Virus genome (UHGV): UHGV-0046269
Source of the DNA: a virus
Reading direction: 5' to 3' (one strand)
DNA: 22,539 nt
Shown here: positions 50-15,105 of the stretch, piece after piece
Layout of the letters: each line of letters opens with the position of its first letter
Numbering within the stretch: position 1 is the stretch's first letter
Notes under the pieces: model-generated
What the model was told of the DNA's origin: nothing
What the model saw: only the letters and a program-made list of their open reading frames with translations
Database searches by the model: none
Position numbers and translations under genes: made by a program

Positions 50-1168
50 TCAAATAACCAACTTAACCCATTCCTGACCTCGAGTATCGTTATAGCGATC
101 GGTGGTTGCCTGGACTTTATGTCCTAGTAATGTTTTTGTATCGATACCCTGTGCACGGTACAGCCGTTCTGATAGAGAGCGTTGTTCATGAAATGTTGGC
201 GAAGTTTTTCCTGCTGGTGGAATTATCCCAGCCAGATCCCGTGCTTTGGCAAAGTAGTCGCTCAGGTTGTCTTTACTCATCGGCTTCGGTTGTTTCTGGT
301 GCCGACTATGGATTAGATATGGACTTAATATTCTGTCTCGGCACCCATCAATAACTTCTTTTAACGTTATCCCAATGGCATCACAGCGTAGTGTAAGCGG
401 TAACGCCAGACGCATTCCGGTTTTTCCCTGGGTGATATGCAAGTGTTCGTTCCACACATCTGAAAAACGCATGTGGCAAATGTCATCACGGCGCTGACCA
501 GTAACAATCGCAAGAAGCATTGCGTTACGGATAAAGTGTTTTTCAGGCGTTGCATTGTAAATTTTTTGCCAGTCTTCCATGGTGAGCCTGGCTCTGGTTA
601 CTTTAGGGATCGGTTTACGGGTAGCCTCCGGAGGATTCCATCCAGGAGGAACTTCCCCTGCATGCTGTGCTTCTTTATAAATATCAACCCATAATCCACG
701 ATTTACTCTCGCTGTGCTGACCATGTCTTTATCCAGCCACTCATCCAGTATTAATGCAAAGTCTCTTACTTCCAGTTCTTTCAATGGGTGGTTTCCCAGA
801 CGGGAAACCAGGTATGCAGCCATTCGAGTTTTTTCTTTGTGAGTTGTAGCTGCAATATCTCCATTTTTCAGTCGCGTGTCCTGTATTTTCAGATATCGAT
901 CAACCCATGCCTTTAATCTGATACCCCGACGTTTTGTTGCTGACGGACTTTCATCAATTTTGCGCATGAAATATTCAGCTTCTGCTGCAGCTATTCGCTG
1001 ATTGGCTGTGGAAGCGATTTTTTCTGCCTTACCTTTGTCTGTTCCGAGTCCGTGAAATTTTCCAGTCACAGGATTTTTATACTGGTAGTAAACTCTGCCA
1101 GTTCTGCGATCAAACTTTTCGTAAAGACCGGCTACGTCAGTGCTGTTTTTTCGTGGCCTCGGTGACAT
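50..1168 (-). CDS. int: Phage integrase, tyrosine recombinase (lambda Int-like)
   Basis: 372 aa ORF; N-terminus (YYQYKNPVTGKFHGLGTDKGKA) resembles the lambda Int arm-binding region and the C-terminal half reads as a tyrosine-recombinase catalytic domain; sits at the prophage edge beside an excisionase-like gene. Confidence 0.88.
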   Translation of the reverse strand: MSPRPRKNSTDVAGLYEKFDRRTGRVYYQYKNPVTGKFHGLGTDKGKAEKIASTANQRIAAAEAEYFMRKIDESPSATKRRGIRLKAWVDRYLKIQDTRLKNGDIAATTHKEKTRMAAYLVSRLGNHPLKELEVRDFALILDEWLDKDMVSTARVNRGLWVDIYKEAQHAGEVPPGWNPPEATRKPIPKVTRARLTMEDWQKIYNATPEKHFIRNAMLLAIVTGQRRDDICHMRFSDVWNEHLHITQGKTGMRLALPLTLRCDAIGITLKEVIDGCRDRILSPYLIHSRHQKQPKPMSKDNLSDYFAKARDLAGIIPPAGKTSPTFHEQRSLSERLYRAQGIDTKTLLGHKVQATTDRYNDTRGQEWVKLVI

Positions 1169-1415
1169 GAGTTAAAATCTCCTTCAGTGCATCATCATCG
1201 CCAGTATGAATTTCCGGCGCAATTCCCGTTTCACCAGGCCCAACAAATACTGCTCGGCGATCTATCAGCCAACGCCCACGAATTTTTTGTGGCCTTGGAA
1301 CGATGTATCCTAGTTTTCCGTATTTCACCAGGGTAGTGTTTGTTATTGGGAGACTGAACCGTTTTGGTTTCCACTCGTCGAGCGTTATCAGGTACTGTTC
1401 GCTCATGGCTATCAC
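1137..1415 (-). CDS. xis: Excisionase (Xis-like)
   Basis: 92 aa ORF immediately upstream of int and overlapping its start; YLITLDEW motif resembles the lambda Xis N-terminus (YLTLQEW). True start may be the internal Met (MSEQYL). Confidence 0.65.
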   Translation of the reverse strand: MIAMSEQYLITLDEWKPKRFSLPITNTTLVKYGKLGYIVPRPQKIRGRWLIDRRAVFVGPGETGIAPEIHTGDDDALKEILTHVTEATKKQH

Positions 1416-1467: not shown

Positions 1468-3909
1468 TTAAAAATCAGCCTGACTCGGGATCAGTTTTTG
1501 CCAGATAACTGAAACGTATTTTGCCTGGTAACGGGCGTCATCAAGTGCATTATGGCGCTCACCTTCGAATGGAATAGCCGTTCTGGCATCGAAGTCTATG
1601 GCTTTCCCCAGCTCAACGATTGTGCGTACATCGCGATCGTTGTAGTAACGCCACGGGCAGGGGATCCCCTGCCGTTCGTATGAACGGCGCAAAATCGTGT
1701 TGTCGAAGTTGGCTCCATTTCCCCAGACCTGAACAAAAAATTCACCGGAGTTTTCGTCGATAAATTCCCGCAATTGTAACAGTGCATCATCTAACGGGAT
1801 TTCATCGGTCATAATGGCAGATTGCGCTTCGCGTGATTGCTTAAGCCACCATTTAATGGTGTCCCGATCAATGACTCCGCCAGCAGTTTCCAGATCGATA
1901 GTCTTACTAAATTCCGGTCCCATATCTCCGGTTTGCGGATCGAAAAATATTGCACCTATTGAGATGATCGGGGCATCAGGATTTTTTCCCATGGTTTCAA
2001 GGTCGATCATTAGATGGTCACACGTCCTGCTGGTGGATGTGATTTCTTGATGACCGTTCACCTTAATTGAGTGATCTGCCGTCTCGCCAGTTTCATTATC
2101 GCTATCGTGATGCTGATTGCCGCCAGTGTTCTCCTTGTGTGGATGTTCAGCGCCTTCCATTTCCTCCGGATCATCTTCCTGAACTTCAACCTGATACTCT
2201 TCATCGAATGTTTCCTGGTATGTTGCGTCGCCCATCACCGCGCCACAATCAGGGCAGTTGCCGCCGCCGGTCTGACCGCAGGCGGTGCAGACTTTTTCCA
2301 CTTCCTGTTGCGCCACTGGTTCGGATTGTTTCGTTTCTGGCTCGTTTTGTAACGCATTTGGGCTGTTTTGTTCCGCTTTTTGGTCGTTCCGTTCCGATTC
2401 ATGCTGGTTCTGGTTCACAGAATCGCGAGTCTGGATCCCTTTGACCCATTTCGGATCATTAGGGTCGCTAATCCCCTCAACAAATTCACCACGCGATACA
2501 GCAAGTAACTTATCGGCGTCAGGCTGGCTGATATTGGCTGCCTGCATAATTTTGTTTACTTCGTCAGCGGTGACTTTTACTTGGTTAGCGGAACTCACCT
2601 GCGACTGAGCATCCAGCGACTGCGCGTTCTGGCCATGTTCAGTTGTATCCGGTTCCATTGTTTCAGTTGTTGCCTGTTCACCTGCCATTGCGTCAGATGG
2701 TTGTGGTTTTTCTTCTTCTGTTTCACGCTCAGTAACCACCTCGCGGTTAATTTCTTCCAGGATATCTTTTTCCGGCGTATGCCGGGCAGCTGTGAGAGTT
2801 TCCTTGCTGGGGTTCTCGTGATCAGTTTCCGTCAAATAGGCGTTGATATACCCCTGAAGGCGTCCCGGGTAGTGATAAAATTCAGGGTGTGCGCTTCGGA
2901 TAAGTGCAAAAATAGCGGCGCGGGAATAGTCCAGAATACCCGGGGTTGCACGAAGTGCTGCGGACCATTCTTTGAACGGACTTTCTTTGTTCAGGACTAC
3001 TTCTTTTGCGCGACGATAAACGCTGCCCGGAATTTCATAAATATTAAAATCCATCGGAAGTGTGGCTGCTGCAATCTCCACATCCAGTGTGTCGAGGGTG
3101 TGTACTAAATTCGGATTGCGATCGGTTTTGTTCCCACCGCCAGCATTAGCACCGGAAGCCGTGCGGGTGATGCGTGAAACACGATTTCCTTTCATCCACT
3201 CTTTTGTCAGCAAACCCCGATCAGTGTAGTCAGCGTCTAGGTATGCTTCGAAAAAAGCAGTTATTAGTCCCAGGTCTGAATTACCAGGATTAGGGAAAAC
3301 TTTGTCAGTGTCACGAACCAGTTTGTGGAGGTCGCGAATCTCCAGCGAGTCGAGCAGACTGGTTTTATGCGAAATAGCCAGGGCAGTAACAGCCGGTAGT
3401 TCTTCAGCCCGTGCAATGTGTAATGCCTGGAGTTCGTCGCGTGAAACGTGCGTTACTGGTTTTTCGCTGCCGTGTTGAGCAAGCCAACGAATGGGCAGTT
3501 CCTGACCGGAGACAGGCAGAAGCATGCTCTCCTCAATCTCAGTCATGGCTTCGCCGTTGATGTTGGTATTGTCAGTGCTGGCTGGTTTGTCCTGAACAGA
3601 GGGGGAAGGGCCGATAAATGTCATTGTGATGCCATCTTTCCCGCCTTTTTCATAGCGGTTGCAGAATTCAGTATCAAACACGCCTTCTGGCGGAAGGTCG
3701 TCAACAACGGGCAAATTGACGCGGACGGGTTTTTTAAAGTCGTCTTCATCATAATCGTTGTCATCCATTGCGGTAATGCAGCGGGAGATTGCAACAGATA
3801 ATTTTTTTGCTGTAGTCCAGTAAAAACCACCTTTAATTCCTAGGCGTTTTCTTACTTTGTCATTTTTTGCTTCGCAATATAGTGCAAATTCTTCTTTATC
3901 AGTGCTCAT
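1468..3909 (-). CDS. Large phage protein with C-terminal DEDDh 3'-5' exonuclease domain (exodeoxyribonuclease VIII-like in related prophages)
   Basis: 813 aa ORF. C-terminal region carries exonuclease motifs I (MIDLETMG), II (VWGNGANFD) and III (HNALDDARY). A long acidic low-complexity middle region contains a CxxC...CxxC pair ([16 protein letters not shown]). Occupies the position of exo/bet in lambda. Confidence 0.7.
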
Positions 3910-4002: not shown

Positions 4003-4194
4003 TTAAAATCCTGCCGGGATTTCGTTATTATCCTGGTGAATAACTTTATCGACCGGATAACAGTTGCCTGGAATTTTCTGTTCGGTTGCTGCTGCCATAC
4101 ATTCCTGCATTGTTCTGTGAACACTGACTGCAATATCAACTGACTCTCCGGAAACAAGAAAAACCGTCAGAATAAGTGCAAATACTGGATTCAT
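4003..4194 (-). CDS. ydfD: YdfD-like small protein with N-terminal hydrophobic segment
   Basis: 63 aa from MNPVFALILTVFLVSG; its ATG overlaps the dicB stop (ATGA); position after dicB matches the Qin prophage operon. The track ORF (4003..4248) has an upstream in-frame Met that I consider less likely. Confidence 0.55.
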   Translation of the reverse strand: MNPVFALILTVFLVSGESVDIAVSVHRTMQECMAAATEQKIPGNCYPVDKVIHQDNNEIPAGF

Positions 4195-4379
4195 TGTGCA
4201 CATCCTTTTGGCATCAGACGTAAACGGGCCAGCATTGAAACAATGCATACTTTATTTAATAACTCCCGTTCGTGTTTTCTTTTGTTAATGGCATCTTCAG
4301 TAAATACAGGATTACTGATAGTGACACCAATTTCAAAACAACCTTCAGACGTATTAACGTTTGGTAATAACGTTTTCAT
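4191..4379 (-). CDS. dicB: Cell division inhibitor DicB
   Basis: 62 aa from the internal Met (MKTLLPNVNTSEGCFEIGVTISNPVFTEDAINKRK...MPKGCAQ) matches my recollection of E. coli DicB nearly residue for residue; lies immediately downstream of dicF as in Qin. Confidence 0.8.
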   Translation of the reverse strand: MKTLLPNVNTSEGCFEIGVTISNPVFTEDAINKRKHERELLNKVCIVSMLARLRLMPKGCAQ

Positions 4380-4548: not shown

Positions 4549-4606
4549 AAAAAGGGCGGCAGAGCAGTCACGGAGTAAAACTGATACCGCCAAACGTCAC
4601 CAGAAA
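4549..4606 (-). ncRNA. dicF: DicF small RNA (antisense regulator of ftsZ and other mRNAs) with intrinsic terminator
   Basis: Reverse complement of 4554..4606 reads TTTCTGGTGACGTTTGGCGGTATCAGTTTTACTCCGTGACTGCTCTGCCGCCC, which matches the DicF sequence as I recall it, followed by a T-tract (4549..4553). Located between ydfC and dicB as in Qin. Confidence 0.85.
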
Positions 4607-5773: not shown

Positions 5774-6412
5774 TTAAATATCTTGTTGAATTTTAAAGCA
5801 TACGCCCAATATGCAAGATAGATCATCCAGCATAATTGAAGGGTAGCGAGGATTCGTGGGGACTAAAAGAATATCCGGCCCTTCTATCTCCAGTTTACGA
5901 ATGACAGGTGTTGTGGTCCCTTTGGGTAAGGCAAGGACAATATTTCCTGGTTGTACGGTTCGATCGGGATCAACAAAAACTGTTGAACCATTTGGGATGG
6001 AAACTCCCCCACCAGATGTTGACATACTGTCACTCTCTAGAACAACTGCAAAGGTATTGACCGGGATTTCTCCGACAAGCTGCACACAAGAGGTTATTGA
6101 GGAATTTTTCATATAATCACTCCAGCTTGCTGCCTGCTGAAGTGATAGTAGCGGAACCGTTTTTATCGGCGGTAAAGATAGATCAAGCGAATCACCTGTA
6201 TTTAACTCTCCTCCATTAAGAAGCCAATTTTCGTTTACTTTCAATATTTTTGCCAGTGAACTTATGTAACGCGAGGACGGCGCTCCTCCACCGTTCATCC
6301 ATTGACTTACGGAGCCTTTTGATGCGCCAGTGCCATTGACAAGGTCTTTGCCTTTCAGGTTTAGCGCATGCATACGTTGGGTTATGCGTTCAGATATAGT
6401 TTGCTTGCTCAT
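5774..6412 (-). CDS. CI-like prophage repressor (N-terminal HTH, C-terminal S24 LexA-like peptidase domain)
   Basis: 212 aa. N-terminus has an HTH-like segment (GASKGSVSQWMNGGGAPSSRYISSLAKIL); C-terminal half has the layout of an S24 self-cleaving domain (VLESDSMSTSGGG...VIRKLEIEG). Divergent from a Cro-like gene. Confidence 0.85.
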   Translation of the reverse strand: MSKQTISERITQRMHALNLKGKDLVNGTGASKGSVSQWMNGGGAPSSRYISSLAKILKVNENWLLNGGELNTGDSLDLSLPPIKTVPLLSLQQAASWSDYMKNSSITSCVQLVGEIPVNTFAVVLESDSMSTSGGGVSIPNGSTVFVDPDRTVQPGNIVLALPKGTTTPVIRKLEIEGPDILLVPTNPRYPSIMLDDLSCILGVCFKIQQDI

Positions 6413-7155: not shown

Positions 7156-7226
7156 CTGACAATAGCCATATCGAATCGCTTCCGGCAACTCGTGAGTAAA
7201 AAGATTCGGTATCAGAAGAGGTGAGT

Positions 7227-8297
7227 ATGGCTAACGCCTGGCTCAGATTATGGCATGACATGCCAAATGACCCTAAGTGGCGAACAATTGCCAGGGTGTC
7301 AGGGCAGCCAATTGCAACAGTGATGGCAGTGTATATCCACCTCCTGGTGAGCGCGTCACGAAATGTCACGCGAGGTCACATTGATGTCACGACAGAAGAT
7401 TTGGCAAGTGCGCTCGACGTGACAGAAGAGGTAATTGATTCAATTTTGCAGACGATGCAGGGGCGGGTACTTGATGGTGATTTAATCACTGGATGGGAAA
7501 AACGCCAGGTGCTGAAAGAGGACAACGGCAATATTTCGCAAACCGCAAAATCTCCGGCAGAGCGCAAGAGGGCGCAGCGAGAGAGGGAAAGAAAGCGGGA
7601 ACAAAATGGCGATTGTCACGGCGAGTCACGAAATGTCACGCACATGTCACGACGAGTCACGACAGATAAAGATACAGATAAAGATACAGATCAAGAAGAT
7701 CAAAACACTATGGTCCATGGCGTAAAAAACGCCACGAACCAGGCAGGGGATGTTCAGACCGTCACTCCTGGCCAGCCCGCAGGCACGACACCGGAAGCCG
7801 ATTCAGCGTATGCGCTGAAAGCCGATTCGGGCGCTGTGCAGCAGGTGATGACCGCAAGGCAGGAGCAATCACACCAACTTCAGCAGCCTGAAGCCGATTC
7901 CGCCATTCAGCGGGAAGCCGATCGGGTAGTCCCGGAAAACACCGGGCAGCCTGTGGGACGAGTGGATTATCCTGATGTGTTCGAACAGGTCTGGCGGGAA
8001 TACCCGTTGCGTGCCGGGGCAAACCCGAAGAAATCCGCTTTCAGTGCCTGGAAAGCCAGATTACGCGAGGGGGTGCCACCAGAGGCCATGCTGGATGGCG
8101 TGAGGCGTTACGCAAGATACCTTGCGGCTACCGGGAAAACGGGAACGGAATTTGTTCAGCGAGCGACGACGTTTTTTGGACCGGACCGGAATTTTGAAAA
8201 CCCCTGGCTGCTCCCGGTAAGCGGCACGAACAACCAGCGTTGTGTGAATCATATTTCTGAACCGGATAACGAAATTCCGCCGGGCTTCAGGGGGTAA
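7227..8297 (+). CDS. Phage replication initiation / replisome organizer protein (O-like) containing iteron-like repeats
   Basis: 356 aa from the ATG at 7227 (RBS GAAGAGG upstream); N-terminus MANAWLRLWHDMPNDPKWRTIARVSG is typical of phage replisome-organizer N-terminal domains; the coding sequence contains two GTCACG repeat clusters and an AT-rich tandem repeat. Confidence 0.75.
   Translation: MANAWLRLWHDMPNDPKWRTIARVSGQPIATVMAVYIHLLVSASRNVTRGHIDVTTEDLASALDVTEEVIDSILQTMQGRVLDGDLITGWEKRQVLKEDNGNISQTAKSPAERKRAQRERERKREQNGDCHGESRNVTHMSRRVTTDKDTDKDTDQEDQNTMVHGVKNATNQAGDVQTVTPGQPAGTTPEADSAYALKADSGAVQQVMTARQEQSHQLQQPEADSAIQREADRVVPENTGQPVGRVDYPDVFEQVWREYPLRAGANPKKSAFSAWKARLREGVPPEAMLDGVRRYARYLAATGKTGTEFVQRATTFFGPDRNFENPWLLPVSGTNNQRCVNHISEPDNEIPPGFRG
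7351..7395. repeat. Iteron-like repeat cluster 1 (GTCACG units) inside the replication gene
   Basis: GCGCGTCACGAAATGTCACGCGAGGTCACATTGATGTCACGACAG carries four GTCAC(G/A) units; the 16-mer TCACGAAATGTCACGC recurs in cluster 2. Confidence 0.6.
7613..7710. repeat. Iteron-like repeat cluster 2 plus adjacent AT-rich tandem repeat (candidate replication origin)
   Basis: TTGTCACGGCGAGTCACGAAATGTCACGCACATGTCACGACGAGTCACGACAG (five GTCACG units) followed by GATAAAGATACAGATAAAGATACAGATCAAGAAGATCAA. Resembles the iterons plus AT-rich arrangement of lambda ori inside O. Confidence 0.6.
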
Positions 8298-10394: not shown

Positions 10395-10652
10395 ATACAG
10401 CGAACGCCATTGGTTTAGTTGGATATTTACTGTGCCGGACAAAAACGGTTTGCGGGGAAATCTTAGTTAAGTAGAATGACTGCGGGTGCTTGAGGCTATC
10501 TGTCTCAGGCATGAACACCAAAAGGCAGATAGAGAAAAGCCCCAGTTAACATTACGCGTCCTGCAAGACGCTTAACATTAATCTGAGGCCATATCTATGC
10601 GACACATAGAGATTAGCCTCTTACGGACCGAAAGGTCAAGGAGAAGCAGGCT

Positions 10653-10808
10653 ATGAAGCAGCAAAAGGCGATGTTAATCGCCCTGATCGTCATCTGTTTA
10701 ACCGTCATAGTGACGGCACTGGTAACGAGGAAAGACCTCTGCGAGGTACGAATCCGAACCGGCCAGACGGAGGTCGCTGTCTTCACAGCTTACGAACCTG
10801 AGGAGTAA
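10653..10808 (+). CDS. hokD: Hok/Gef-family type I toxin (HokD/RelF-like)
   Basis: Hand translation MKQQKAMLIALIVICLTVIVTALVTRKDLCEVRIRTGQTEVAVFTAYEPEE (51 aa) fits the Hok/Gef family. A short upstream ORF (10597..10656) ends with TGA overlapping the hok ATG (mok-like coupling). Confidence 0.85.
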   Translation: MKQQKAMLIALIVICLTVIVTALVTRKDLCEVRIRTGQTEVAVFTAYEPEE

Positions 10809-13944: not shown

Positions 13945-14020
13945 GGCCCTTTAGCTCAGTGGTGAGAGCGAGCGACTCATAATCGCCAGGTCGCTGGTTC
14001 AAATCCAGCAAGGGCCACCA
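13945..14020 (+). tRNA. ileZ: tRNA-Ile2 (anticodon CAU, ileX/ileZ-like)
   Basis: 76 nt cloverleaf: acceptor GGCCCTT/AAGGGCC, D-arm GCTC...GAGC, anticodon loop CTCATAA, T-arm GCTGG-TTCAAAT-CCAGC, 3' ACCA. Close to E. coli tRNA-Ile2 as I recall it. Confidence 0.88.
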
Positions 14021-14027
14021 TCACATA

Positions 14028-14104
14028 CCGCCATTAGCTCATCAGGAAAGAGCGCCAGCTTTCGAAGCTGGTTGCGCGGAGTTCGGGTCCCCGATGGTGG
14101 TCCA
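14028..14104 (+). tRNA. argN: tRNA-Arg (anticodon UCG), argN-like
   Basis: 77 nt: acceptor CCGCCAT/ATGGTGG (one G-U), D-arm GCTC...GAGC, anticodon stem CCAGC/GCTGG with loop TTTCGAA (anticodon TCG), T-arm CGGAG-TTCGGGT-CCCCG with one A-C mismatch, 3' TCCA. Confidence 0.6.
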
Positions 14105-14117
14105 TTATCGGTATTCT

Positions 14118-14194
14118 GCGTTGTTAGCTCAGCAGGACAGAGCAATTGCCTTCTAAGCAATCGGTCAGTGGTTCGAATCCAGTACAACGCGCCA
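14118..14194 (+). tRNA. argO: tRNA-Arg (anticodon UCU), argO/argU-like
   Basis: 77 nt: acceptor GCGTTGT/ACAACGC, anticodon loop CTTCTAA (TCT), T-loop GGTTCGAATCC, 3' GCCA. Confidence 0.88.
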
Positions 14195-14658: not shown

Positions 14659-15052
14659 ATACATATCTGGATTATCACCTGTTACGGTAAAAAGTGATTG
14701 CTTACTGTTTTTGTGAATGGCATTGCAGCAGCCGGATAATGTCAGTGCTGGCTGACGGTGTGCTGGTGGCAGGTGTGGTGGTTGTTGCTTTTCCGTTGCT
14801 GAAAAAGAAAACGCCAGACTGTTAGCCGGGTATCAGTTAGCGGGAGAAATTTTTAAATACTTCACAATTCAGGCGGTTGACTGTTGTCTGGTTTGCGGGG
14901 AGTTTGTTAAAAGAAACTGGCATGGTGAATCCCCCTGTGCGGAGGGGCAATCAGCGAGTAGGTATATGGGATAATCGCGGATTCAGGTGCTGGTACTGAA
15001 TTCACCGGGAGGCACCCGGCACCATGCAATGGCACATAGCGCCACTCTCCAA

Positions 15053-15078
15053 CCCCTCTCCGGAGGGGCTGTTTATAT
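15053..15078 (+). terminator. GC-rich hairpin followed by T-rich tract (possible intrinsic terminator)
   Basis: CCCCTC-TCCG-GAGGGG followed by CTGTTTATATTGATTTT; a related hairpin CCCCT-GTGCGG-AGGGG lies about 115 bp upstream (14934..14949). Confidence 0.35.
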
Positions 15079-15105
15079 TGATTTTGTCAGATGTGAGTAA
15101 ACTCC

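What the first reader, a model, noticed from the sequence alone, without database searches (positions are those of the whole stretch)
1468..3909. 813-aa multidomain protein with DEDDh exonuclease in the recombination slot
In place of lambda exo/bet there is a single large protein with a C-terminal DEDDh 3'-5' exonuclease domain, a long acidic low-complexity linker, a CxxC...CxxC pair and an uncharacterised N-terminal ~450 aa. DEDDh polarity is opposite to the 5'-3' resection by lambda Exo or RecE, so the role of this protein is unclear.
Basis: partly seen in the sequence, partly recalled or inferred. Interest (0 to 1): 0.45.

Follow-up and report, generated by a model that had tools for sequence, protein, structure and literature searches.

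The report
RecE scaffold fused to 3'-5' exonuclease
This very common E. coli prophage gene keeps the non-catalytic front part of the recombination nuclease RecE, but carries a T4 DexA-type 3'-5' exonuclease in place of RecE's own nuclease and has no annealing partner; the architecture is clear, but what it does is untested.

Summary
Window 1468-3909 (minus strand) is an intact 813-aa ORF. Its C-terminus is a DEDDh exonuclease (Pfam PF16473, E 1e-67) with catalytic residues D636, E638, D736, H786 and D791, and its closest solved structure is T4 DexA.

The "uncharacterised" N-terminal part is not an orphan. Residues 58-615 are 59% identical to residues 50-591 of E. coli K-12 RecE. That is RecE's non-catalytic region, and two reviews say its function is unknown. 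The CxxC pair and the acidic linkers belong to this RecE-type region.

The protein is therefore a RecE whose 5'-3' PD-(D/E)XK nuclease domain has been replaced by a 3'-5' DEDDh domain.

- **No annealing partner:** all 11 DEDDh-type loci I examined run dicB/ydfD-type small genes, exonuclease, xis, int, with no recT. All 4 PD-(D/E)XK-type loci are followed by recT.
- **Frequency:** the DEDDh domain DNA is in 4052 of 5426 complete E. coli genomes. K-12's copy (ydfE) is truncated by IS2.
- **N-terminal fold:** it models confidently but has no structural relative.

My best reading is a DNA-end 3'-5' exonuclease expressed on prophage induction, not a two-component recombinase. No experiment has tested it. 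I rate it a new variant of a known kind, of moderate interest.

The parts
1468..3909 (-). Whole gene: 813-aa fusion of a RecE-type N-terminal region with a DEDDh exonuclease (stop codon included).
   Evidence: The ORF is listed. It is 100% identical to RefSeq WP_000102136.1 'exonuclease' in many E. coli chromosomes and to a gene of phage vB_EcoS-640R1.
3610..3909 (-). N-terminal domain 1 (aa 1-100), mixed alpha/beta. It is 73-93% identical to the start of the nuclease-less homologue of Shigella phage POCJ13.
2740..3552 (-). Helical domain (aa 120-390). It holds the core shared by the whole family (about aa 225-365, with TKEWxKGNRVS..[16 protein letters not shown] and LDYSRAAIF). Pfam PF06630 (Exonuc_VIII) covers aa 57-189.
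   Evidence: pLDDT is mostly 89-98. Aa 121-270 are 80-93% identical to K-12 RecE and aa 241-360 are 80-97% identical to Gifsy-2 RecE. There is no PDB sequence relative (best E 0.14) and no structural relative.
2569..2727 (-). Acidic disordered linker 1 (aa 395-447).
   Evidence: pLDDT is below 50. Asp+Glu is up to 0.30.
2425..2517 (-). Conserved short motif [31 protein letters not shown] (aa 465-495).
   Evidence: The motif is present in 6 of the 7 aligned RecE-family proteins. pLDDT is about 76-82. There is a weak Pfam DUF4072 hit, E 0.61.
2245..2289 (-). CxxC-x7-CxxC zinc-ribbon-like element (aa 541-555).
   Evidence: Found by pattern search. It is also present in K-12 RecE, POCJ13 and Tritos, but not in the Gifsy-2, mEp237 or Klebsiella proteins. 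pLDDT is about 70.
2035..2232 (-). Acidic disordered linker 2 (aa 560-625). Homology to RecE ends at about aa 615, which is the junction with the DEDDh domain.
   Evidence: pLDDT is below 50. The BLASTP alignment to RecE stops at query residue 615, which is RecE residue 591.
1492..2016 (-). DEDDh 3'-5' exonuclease domain (aa 632-806), with catalytic residues D636, E638, D736, H786 and D791.
   Evidence: Pfam PF16473, E 1.2e-67. Foldseek's top hits are DexA 8kel/8ken. PDB sequence search gives DexA at E 1.8e-6.
1137..1415 (-). Context: excisionase gene, immediately downstream.
   Evidence: Pfam Exc. Annotated as excisionase.
50..1168 (-). Context: lambda-type integrase gene.
   Evidence: Pfam Arm-DNA-bind_1 plus Phage_integrase.
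4003..4379 (-). Context: ydfD-like gene (DUF1482, about 4003-4194) and dicB (about 4191-4379), immediately upstream in the same operon.
   Evidence: Pfam DUF1482 and DicB. The gene limits are taken from the identical annotated loci.
4554..4605 (-). Context: DicF small RNA, in the same leftward operon.
   Evidence: Rfam RF00039, 76.7 bits against a gathering score of 48.

Best explanation
The gene encodes a mosaic member of the RecE family. The RecE-type N-terminal region is kept: two folded domains, a conserved [10 protein letters not shown] motif and a zinc ribbon, strung on acidic disordered linkers. RecE's 5'-3' PD-(D/E)XK nuclease domain has been replaced by a DexA/Rv2179c-type DEDDh 3'-5' exonuclease.

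It is the last gene of the repressor-controlled leftward early operon (DUF1391 gene, dicF, dicB, ydfD, exonuclease, xis, int). It should therefore be made when the prophage is induced, not in the quiescent lysogen.

Proposed mechanism (inferred):
- The DEDDh domain removes nucleotides from free DNA 3' ends by two-metal catalysis through D636/E638/D736/H786/D791.
- The N-terminal region delivers it to the same still-unidentified target, either DNA ends or a partner protein, that it serves in RecE.
- With no annealing protein encoded, it works as a stand-alone DNA-end trimming or degrading enzyme during lytic development. It is not the exonuclease half of an exo/annealase recombinase.

Shown here: the architecture, intact catalytic residues, the fold, the operon position, the absence of recT, and the distribution. 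Inferred: DNA as the substrate, targeting by the N-terminal region, and the timing of expression.

The confidence of 0.5 is for the whole statement. The architectural part alone I put at about 0.9 and the mechanistic part at about 0.45.
For: Architecture:
- Pfam PF16473 at aa 632-803 and PF06630 at aa 57-189.
- NCBIfam's exodeoxyribonuclease VIII model matches only its positions 1-602 of 877.
- 59% identity to K-12 RecE residues 50-591, and nothing matching RecE's nuclease domain.

Active site and fold:
- All five catalytic residues are conserved.
- T4 DexA is the best PDB match by sequence and by fold.
- dN/dS for the C-terminal 364 codons is 0.13 against Tritos and 0.39 against mEp460.

The nuclease is a swappable unit on this N-terminal region. 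Among cluster representatives of at least 450 aa that match the N-terminal query (aa 1-630), 15 carry DEDDh, 22 carry PD-(D/E)XK and roughly 40 carry neither. The nuclease-less POCJ13 protein is followed by recT and a separate YqaJ exonuclease. All three arrangements tie the N-terminal region to DNA-end nucleases, which favours DNA as the substrate here.

No annealase:
- None is encoded in the window from int to the terminase gene.
- 11 of 11 DEDDh-type loci go straight to xis/int: the 640R1 and CFSAN067215 loci, which are identical to the window gene, Tritos, mEp460, P0251, P0257, P0282 and four further E. coli chromosomes.
- 4 of 4 PD-(D/E)XK-type loci are followed by recT.

Operon position: no sigma-70-like promoter is found on the minus strand between 3910 and about 5660. 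A stand-alone 189-aa homologue in Salmonella sits in the same slot directly before xis-int.

Against: - No biochemical or genetic data exist for this protein or any close relative.
- The family also includes an exoribonuclease: the Pfam family is named after M. tuberculosis Rv2179c. The substrate is therefore not settled by homology.
- Expression only on induction is inferred from a simple promoter scan and from knowledge of the K-12 dicB operon. It was not measured.
- The high prevalence (75% of complete E. coli genomes), including in defective prophages, could instead point to a benefit for the host.
Confidence: 0.5

Rival explanations
1. It is a prophage-encoded exclusion or defence nuclease. 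It degrades the DNA of superinfecting phages, for example 5hmC-modified T-even DNA, as reported for the E. coli DexA homologue EcD (the 'HREX' strategy).
For: - The domain belongs to the DexA family.
- PMC12153337 reports that plasmid-borne EcD degrades T4 DNA and protects E. coli from T4. It also notes that DexA homologues are most frequent in Escherichia.
- The gene is kept in 75% of complete E. coli genomes, with up to 7 copies.
- A stand-alone homologue lies next to a DndB-like gene.
Against: - The gene is the distal member of a repressor-controlled early operon, with no promoter-like site of its own.
- The DexA residues implicated in 5hmC recognition are not clearly kept: W152 aligns with Y756 and D169 with A770. 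The alignment in that loop is uncertain.
- PADLOC gives no hit, though that library predates HREX.
- Viable phages carry the gene in their early operon (Tritos, mEp460).
- I could not obtain the EcD sequence, so its closeness to this domain is untested.
Confidence: 0.2
2. It is a 3'-5' exoribonuclease, acting like Rv2179c or the ISG20-like TONDO proteins. It would trim phage or host RNA 3' ends, for regulation or for defence against RNA phages.
For: - The Pfam family is named after the M. tuberculosis exoribonuclease Rv2179c.
- RNase T and oligoribonuclease are the next-best structural matches.
- Preprint PMC13344964 shows that prophage- and plasmid-borne DEDDh proteins with auxiliary domains block the RNA phages MS2 and Qbeta.
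Against: - The nearest solved relative is the DNA exonuclease DexA.
- The N-terminal region is otherwise linked only to DNA nucleases and recT.
- The match to Pfam RNase_T (PF00929) is below its cut-off (21.7 against 24 bits).
- The TONDO candidates were found with ISG20 as query, and the BLAST-derived ones were limited to proteins under 500 aa.
Confidence: 0.1
3. It is still a recombination exonuclease. It cooperates in trans with an annealase from a co-resident prophage (such as Rac RecT) or with host functions. 3'-5' resection would expose complementary 5' tails for end-to-end joining.
For: - It occupies the recE slot and keeps the RecE N-terminal region, which enhances linear-linear recombination in full-length RecE (Fu et al. 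2012, as cited in PMC11611040 and PMC11610958).
- 3'-5' resection can drive joining of linear DNA in E. coli without RecA or RecET: exonuclease III (XthA) in in vivo cloning (PMC6379578).
- E. coli genomes often hold several such prophages (median 2 and up to 9 places matching the whole gene).
Against: - recT is strictly absent at all 11 DEDDh-type loci and present at all 4 PD-(D/E)XK-type loci. That argues the annealase requirement was lost together with the swap.
- RecE-RecT and Exo-Beta pairs work through specific partner contacts (established knowledge). In RecE these map to the nuclease domain, which is absent here.
Confidence: 0.12
4. It is a non-functional remnant that persists only by hitch-hiking in prophages.
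For: - The gene is a patchwork of segments from different RecE-family genes.
- K-12's copy (ydfE) is a pseudogene.
Against: - The 813-aa frame is intact.
- All catalytic residues are conserved across homologues of 57-100% identity.
- dN/dS is below 1.
- The gene is present in viable phages.
- The architecture is kept in clusters only 41-47% identical.
Confidence: 0.03

Closest known systems
RecE (exodeoxyribonuclease VIII) of the E. coli K-12 Rac prophage
   Same: - Residues 58-615 are 59% identical to RecE 50-591, and above 90% over aa 121-240. This stretch includes Pfam PF06630, the [10 protein letters not shown] motif and the CxxC zinc ribbon.
- The position is the same: the distal end of the leftward early operon, near xis-int.
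   Different: - RecE's catalytic PD-(D/E)XK domain (Pfam DUF3799, RecE 615-850) is absent and replaced by a DEDDh domain.
- There is no recT downstream.
- The protein scores below the NCBIfam equivalog cut-off (944 against 1269 bits).
- The expected polarity is 3'-5' rather than 5'-3'.
Bacteriophage T4 DexA (exonuclease A; PDB 8kel/8ken)
   Same: - It is the best solved-structure match by sequence (E 1.8e-6) and by fold (Foldseek E 1.6e-8).
- All five DEDDh catalytic residues are shared.
   Different: - Identity is only about 28%.
- DexA is a stand-alone 227-aa protein of a lytic phage, with extra loops.
- The DexA residues tied to 5hmC recognition (W152, D169) align with Y756 and A770 here.
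EcD / HREX (E. coli DexA homologue, GenBank HAK9828821.1; PMC12153337)
   Same: It is an E. coli DexA-family DEDDh exonuclease. It is the only bacterial member with a reported function (degradation of 5hmC DNA and protection against T4).
   Different: - Judged from its cloning primers, EcD starts MIDTET, right at the catalytic motif.
- I could not retrieve its sequence, so its identity to this domain, and whether it is itself a fragment of a fusion gene, are unknown.
Mycobacterium tuberculosis Rv2179c (founder of Pfam PF16473)
   Same: Same Pfam family, matched end to end (profile positions 2-177 of 177).
   Different: Rv2179c is a stand-alone chromosomal exoribonuclease. It was not compared directly here, and its function is cited from the Pfam description and my own knowledge.
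YdfE of the E. coli K-12 Qin prophage
   Same: - YdfE sits in the same operon slot (dicB, ydfD, ydfE).
- Its first 256 aa are 99% identical to the N-terminus of the 823-aa DEDDh exonuclease of phage Tritos. The C-terminal 363 aa of that Tritos protein are 93-100% identical to the window protein.
   Different: - ydfE is a pseudogene cut by IS2E and lacks the DEDDh domain.
- Its N-terminal 256 aa belong to a different N-terminal type from the window's.
Nuclease-less RecE-N proteins (e.g. the Shigella phage POCJ13 682-aa 'exodeoxyribonuclease VIII')
   Same: It shares the N-terminal region, the conserved motif and the zinc ribbon. Aa 1-90 are 73-93% identical.
   Different: It has no nuclease domain at all. 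It is followed by recT and a separate YqaJ-type exonuclease.

Membership tests
RecE / exodeoxyribonuclease VIII (NCBIfam NF007259 equivalog) | N-terminal RecE region (Pfam PF06630 and the downstream conserved blocks) | tested here: met
   PF06630 E 1.5e-35. 59% identity to RecE 50-591.
RecE / exodeoxyribonuclease VIII (NCBIfam NF007259 equivalog) | C-terminal PD-(D/E)XK 5'-3' exonuclease domain (Pfam PF12684/DUF3799; RecE about 606-866) | tested here: not met
   There is no PF12684 hit in the window protein, whereas K-12, Gifsy-2, mEp237 and Klebsiella RecE all have one. The BLASTP alignment ends at RecE residue 591.
RecE / exodeoxyribonuclease VIII (NCBIfam NF007259 equivalog) | Whole-protein score above the curated equivalog cut-off | tested here: not met
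   944.4 bits against a cut-off of 1269. Only model positions 1-602 of 877 are matched.
RecE / exodeoxyribonuclease VIII (NCBIfam NF007259 equivalog) | Adjacent recT partner gene | tested here: not met
   The next genes are xis and int. No annealase family appears among the window's early genes.
Two-component phage recombinase (5'-3' exonuclease plus single-strand annealing protein) | Both an exonuclease of 5'-3' polarity and an annealase (RecT/Beta/Erf/Sak) are encoded together | tested here: not met
   The nuclease fold is DEDDh. No annealase is present in the window or in the 11 DEDDh-type loci.
Rv2179c-like / DexA-like DEDDh exonucleases (Pfam PF16473) | Profile match above the gathering threshold over the full domain | tested here: met
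   227.4 bits against 27, profile positions 2-177 of 177.
Rv2179c-like / DexA-like DEDDh exonucleases (Pfam PF16473) | Five catalytic residues D-E-D-D-h | tested here: met
   D636, E638, D736, H786 and D791 align with DexA D7, E9, D119, H186 and D191.
Rv2179c-like / DexA-like DEDDh exonucleases (Pfam PF16473) | DnaQ-like fold | tested here: met
   AlphaFold2 pLDDT is mostly 80-95 over aa 632-806 (lowest 10-aa block 68). The top Foldseek hits are DexA, RNase T and oligoribonuclease.
Rv2179c-like / DexA-like DEDDh exonucleases (Pfam PF16473) | Metal-dependent 3'-5' exonuclease activity | not testable with these tools
   This needs an enzyme assay.
HREX (EcD-type 5hmC-DNA-specific defence exonuclease, PMC12153337) | Residues equivalent to DexA W152 and D169 (5hmC recognition) are kept | tested here: inconclusive
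   W152 aligns with Y756 (aromatic kept) and D169 with A770 (acidic residue lost). The alignment in these loops is uncertain at 28% identity.
HREX (EcD-type 5hmC-DNA-specific defence exonuclease, PMC12153337) | Loss of the DexA tetramer residue D90 | tested here: inconclusive
   D90 aligns with D708, and a one-residue shift would give A709.
HREX (EcD-type 5hmC-DNA-specific defence exonuclease, PMC12153337) | Close sequence relationship to EcD itself | not tested
   The EcD sequence is not in the paper's text or supplements. Primer-based scans found only chance matches.
HREX (EcD-type 5hmC-DNA-specific defence exonuclease, PMC12153337) | Protection of the host against T4-like phages | not testable with these tools
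   This needs plaque or growth assays. The operon context suggests the gene is repressed in lysogens.
TONDO (ISG20-like DEDDh defence exoribonucleases, PMC13344964) | ISG20-like DEDDh domain (RNase_T/PF00929-type) | tested here: inconclusive
   PF00929 scores 21.7 bits, below its cut-off of 24.

The most novel reading that the evidence does not exclude
The RecE N-terminal region is an autonomous, portable DNA-end (or partner-binding) module. Phages combine it with nucleases of either polarity (PD-(D/E)XK in cis, YqaJ in trans, DEDDh in cis). The DEDDh version then defines a distinct, annealase-independent pathway. One possibility is 3'-5' resection giving 5'-tailed ends that join or recombine without RecT, as exonuclease III does in E. 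coli in vivo cloning. Another is a new end-directed function in lytic growth. If this is right, comparing the three arrangements would make the long-unexplained function of RecE's N-terminal 600 residues directly testable.
Probability: 0.12. Interest if true: 0.7.

Novelty: new variant of a known kind. Interest (0 to 1): 0.45.

Why it matters
RecE/RecT is a workhorse of recombineering, yet two thirds of RecE (its N-terminal ~600 residues) has no known function. This gene shows that the same N-terminal region occurs naturally in three forms: with a nuclease of opposite polarity, with RecE's own nuclease, or with none. The annealase RecT is present only in the latter two. That gives a natural set of domain swaps for asking what the N-terminal region does.

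The DEDDh form is among the commonest prophage genes of E. coli: 75% of complete genomes, with several copies in O157:H7. It has probably escaped study because the K-12 copy, ydfE, is truncated by IS2. Public records variously name it exodeoxyribonuclease VIII or RecE family, which wrongly implies 5'-3' RecE activity.

If it turns out to be a defence or exclusion nuclease like EcD, it would also bear on phage susceptibility of clinical E. coli.

Tried and rejected
1. **EcD sequence.** I tried to recover EcD (HAK9828821.1), the only characterised bacterial DexA homologue, from its cloning primers. The supplement search gave primers only. Two viral-contig scans and one metagenome scan returned only chance matches with no DEDDh ORF. 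The relation of EcD to this domain is therefore untested.
2. **The search for homologous proteins.** Searches with the C-terminal and N-terminal parts returned only hits shorter than about 1.75 times the query. Most were near-identical assembly fragments, which were useless for an architecture survey. The 50%-cluster representative search replaced them.
Alignments built from the representative hits were accepted.
5. **PADLOC defence models:** no hit.
6. **Internal start.** I looked for an internal translation start that would yield a free DEDDh domain at M634. There is no convincing Shine-Dalgarno sequence at a suitable distance, so I dropped the idea.
7. **Literature.** Searches for RecE with DEDDh, Rv2179c with phage, PF16473, ydfE and HREX found no paper describing this fusion.
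Full report
**1. Observation**

The window carries an intact 813-aa ORF at 1468..3909 on the minus strand. Pfam places a full-length Rv2179c-like DEDDh exonuclease domain at aa 632-803 (E 1.2e-67). It also places the family called Exonuc_VIII (PF06630) at aa 57-189. The CxxC pair is at C541/C544 and C552/C555. Two stretches are strongly acidic.

In an AlphaFold2 model built on 91 aligned sequences, aa 395-447, 490-538 and 560-625 have pLDDT below 50. The confident parts are aa 1-100, 120-390 and 632-806. Aligned with T4 DexA, all five catalytic residues are present: D636, E638, D736, H786 and D791. The best solved-structure matches are T4 DexA by sequence (8kel, E 1.8e-6) and by fold (Foldseek E 1.6e-8, target TM 0.65-0.72). 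RNase T and oligoribonuclease follow.

**2. What the N-terminal part is**

It is not an orphan.
- NCBIfam's exodeoxyribonuclease VIII equivalog matches the protein, but only over model positions 1-602 of 877 and below its cut-off (944 against 1269 bits).
- BLASTP against K-12 RecE aligns aa 58-615 with RecE 50-591 at 59% identity, then stops.
- RecE's own nuclease (Pfam DUF3799, PD-(D/E)XK, RecE 615-850) has no counterpart here.

The zinc ribbon, the conserved [31 protein letters not shown] motif and the acidic linkers are shared with RecE. The protein is thus a RecE in which the 5'-3' nuclease domain has been exchanged for a 3'-5' DEDDh domain at about residue 615-630.

Two reviews state that the function of the RecE N-terminal region is unknown or unclear, apart from its enhancing linear-linear recombination in full-length RecE (PMC11611040, PMC11610958).

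**3. Mosaic structure**

Identity in 30-aa windows shows a patchwork:

| Window residues | Closest relative | Identity |
|---|---|---|
| 1-90 | Nuclease-less homologue of Shigella phage POCJ13 | 73-93% |
| 121-270 | K-12 RecE | 80-93% |
| 241-360 | Gifsy-2 RecE | 80-97% |
| 451-813 | 823-aa exonuclease of phage Tritos | 93-100% |

The Tritos-type protein has a different N-terminus. Its first 256 aa are 99% identical to K-12 YdfE, a Qin-prophage pseudogene cut by IS2E. So K-12 once had a DEDDh-type gene and lost its 3' part. This probably explains why the gene has never been studied genetically.

**4. Context**

The window is the left arm and early region of a lambdoid, Qin/DicB-type E. coli prophage. 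The leftward operon reads:
- S24 repressor, 5774-6412
- DUF1391 gene
- DicF RNA, 4554-4605
- dicB
- ydfD-like gene (DUF1482)
- the exonuclease
- xis
- int

These come, and identical annotated loci next to potC are. No sigma-70-like site lies on the minus strand between the exonuclease gene and about 5660. The gene therefore looks like the distal member of the repressor-controlled early operon. This is an inference.

No annealase family (RecT, Beta, Erf or Sak) is found anywhere from int to the terminase gene. RusA, a DUF968/HNH protein, Q, a lysozyme and Nu1 are present.

**5. Comparative survey**

A search of 1.84 billion cluster representatives with aa 1-630 found only 270 relatives at E 0.001 or better. 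The RecE-N family is therefore small. Among the representatives of at least 450 aa, 15 carry the DEDDh domain, 22 carry the PD-(D/E)XK domain and roughly 40 carry neither. Pfam confirmed the absence of any nuclease domain in the 10 I tested.

| Nuclease arrangement | Loci examined | What follows | Calls |
|---|---|---|---|
| PD-(D/E)XK in cis | Rac, Gifsy-2, mEp237, Klebsiella phi5.1 | recT | 10, 43-46 |
| None | POCJ13 | small ORF, recT, separate YqaJ exonuclease | 42, 46 |
| DEDDh in cis | 11 loci (listed below) | directly xis/int, no recT | see below |

The 11 DEDDh-type loci are:
- the 640R1 and CFSAN067215 loci, which are identical to the window gene;
- Tritos and mEp460;
- three clusters only 41-47% identical to the window protein;
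- four further chromosomes, at the ompW, tRNA-Ser and rspB sites.

A stand-alone 189-aa DEDDh homologue in Salmonella (59% identical) occupies the same slot directly before xis-int. The DEDDh domain DNA is present at 80% coverage or more in 4052 of 5426 complete E. coli genomes, with up to 7 copies per genome.

**6. Structure of the N-terminal region**

A separate model of aa 1-395 is confident (mean pLDDT 90.4, pTM 0.65). It shows a small alpha/beta domain and a larger helical domain.
- Foldseek against predicted viral structures gives nothing at E 0.001 or better.
- A sequence-profile search of the PDB gives only chance-level hits.

The fold offers no functional lead.

**7. Mechanism**

*Shown:* an intact DEDDh active site on a RecE-type N-terminal region, in an early operon, without an annealase.

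*Inferred:* the enzyme trims DNA 3' ends. Two things favour DNA. The N-terminal region is otherwise always linked to DNA-end nucleases, in cis or in trans. [quoted passage not shown] The coupled loss of recT argues that this variant is not half of a two-component recombinase.

Opposite polarity does not by itself exclude end-joining. Exonuclease III, which is also 3'-5', drives RecA- and RecET-independent joining of linear DNA in E. coli (PMC6379578). I keep that as the novel case, at low probability.

*Rivals:*
- An exclusion or defence nuclease like EcD/HREX (PMC12153337). Against this are the operon position and the unclear conservation of the 5hmC-recognition residues.
- An exoribonuclease, like Rv2179c or the TONDO proteins (PMC13344964).
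- A recombination exonuclease working with an annealase supplied in trans.
- A decaying remnant. Against this are the intact frame, the conserved catalytic residues, dN/dS of 0.13-0.39 and the gene's presence in viable phages.

**8. Comparison with known families and novelty**

The protein fails three defining features of RecE: the nuclease domain, the equivalog score and the recT partner. It should not be called exodeoxyribonuclease VIII, as several phage records do. It is a bona fide member of the PF16473 DEDDh family. Membership in HREX could not be tested because the EcD sequence was not recoverable. PADLOC has no matching model.

I found no paper describing this fusion. The gene is widely annotated, as 'exonuclease' by PGAP and in PHROG exonuclease families. 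It is built from two known modules, so it is a new variant of a known kind, not a new kind.

**9. Verdict**

Interest is moderate (0.45). The polarity swap on a conserved N-terminal region, the coupled loss of recT, the existence of nuclease-less forms and the very high prevalence make this a useful handle on the unexplained RecE N-terminus. No function is demonstrated, and the components are individually familiar.

Noticed in passing
L012 5079-5999 (E. coli K-12 MG1655, Qin prophage): The K-12 pseudogene ydfE is the first 256 aa of a Tritos-type 823-aa DEDDh exonuclease (99% identical), cut off by IS2E. Strains ZLWT and PEC395 carry the intact gene at the same rspB-adjacent site (L031, L032).
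   Followed up: yes
L008 4001-6049 and 7130-7810 (Shigella phage POCJ13): A 682-aa RecE-N homologue has no nuclease domain at all. It is followed by a small ORF, recT and a separate YqaJ-type exonuclease. Roughly 40 further cluster representatives of at least 450 aa also lack any nuclease domain.
   Followed up: partly
window 1468-3909: The gene is a four-piece mosaic of different RecE-family genes (POCJ13-like, K-12 RecE-like, Gifsy-2-like and Tritos-like segments at 73-100% identity). This implies frequent recombination inside this gene among lambdoid prophages.
   Followed up: yes
window 4554-4605 (-): DicF small RNA (Rfam 76.7 bits) lies in the same leftward operon, upstream of dicB and a ydfD-like lysis gene.
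   Followed up: partly
window 10484-10655 (+): Sok antitoxin RNA of a hok/sok-type toxin-antitoxin locus (Rfam 106.7 bits). The identical annotated loci list hokD nearby.
   Followed up: no
window 13945-14194 (+): Three phage-borne tRNA genes lie just downstream of the Q antiterminator gene: Met (CAT), Arg (TCG) and Arg (TCT).
   Followed up: partly
window 14891-15080 (+): A full-length match to the small RNA STnc100 (Rfam 125.9 bits) lies in the late-promoter region downstream of the tRNAs.
   Followed up: no
L013 3743-5570 (Salmonella enterica prophage): A stand-alone 189-aa DEDDh homologue (59% identical) sits directly before xis-int. It is preceded by a DndB-like gene and by YfdP/YfdQ-type genes, a different early operon with the same terminal slot.
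   Followed up: partly
window 7221-8297 (+): A 358-aa ORF in the replication-gene position has no Pfam match. The identical phage record calls it replication protein O, while RefSeq calls it hypothetical.
   Followed up: no
window aa 241-265 of the ORF (nt 3115-3189): A glycine-rich loop, [16 protein letters not shown], is modelled at high confidence (pLDDT about 94). It is conserved in many but not all family members, and other members replace it with an unrelated basic segment. Its role is unknown.
   Followed up: no
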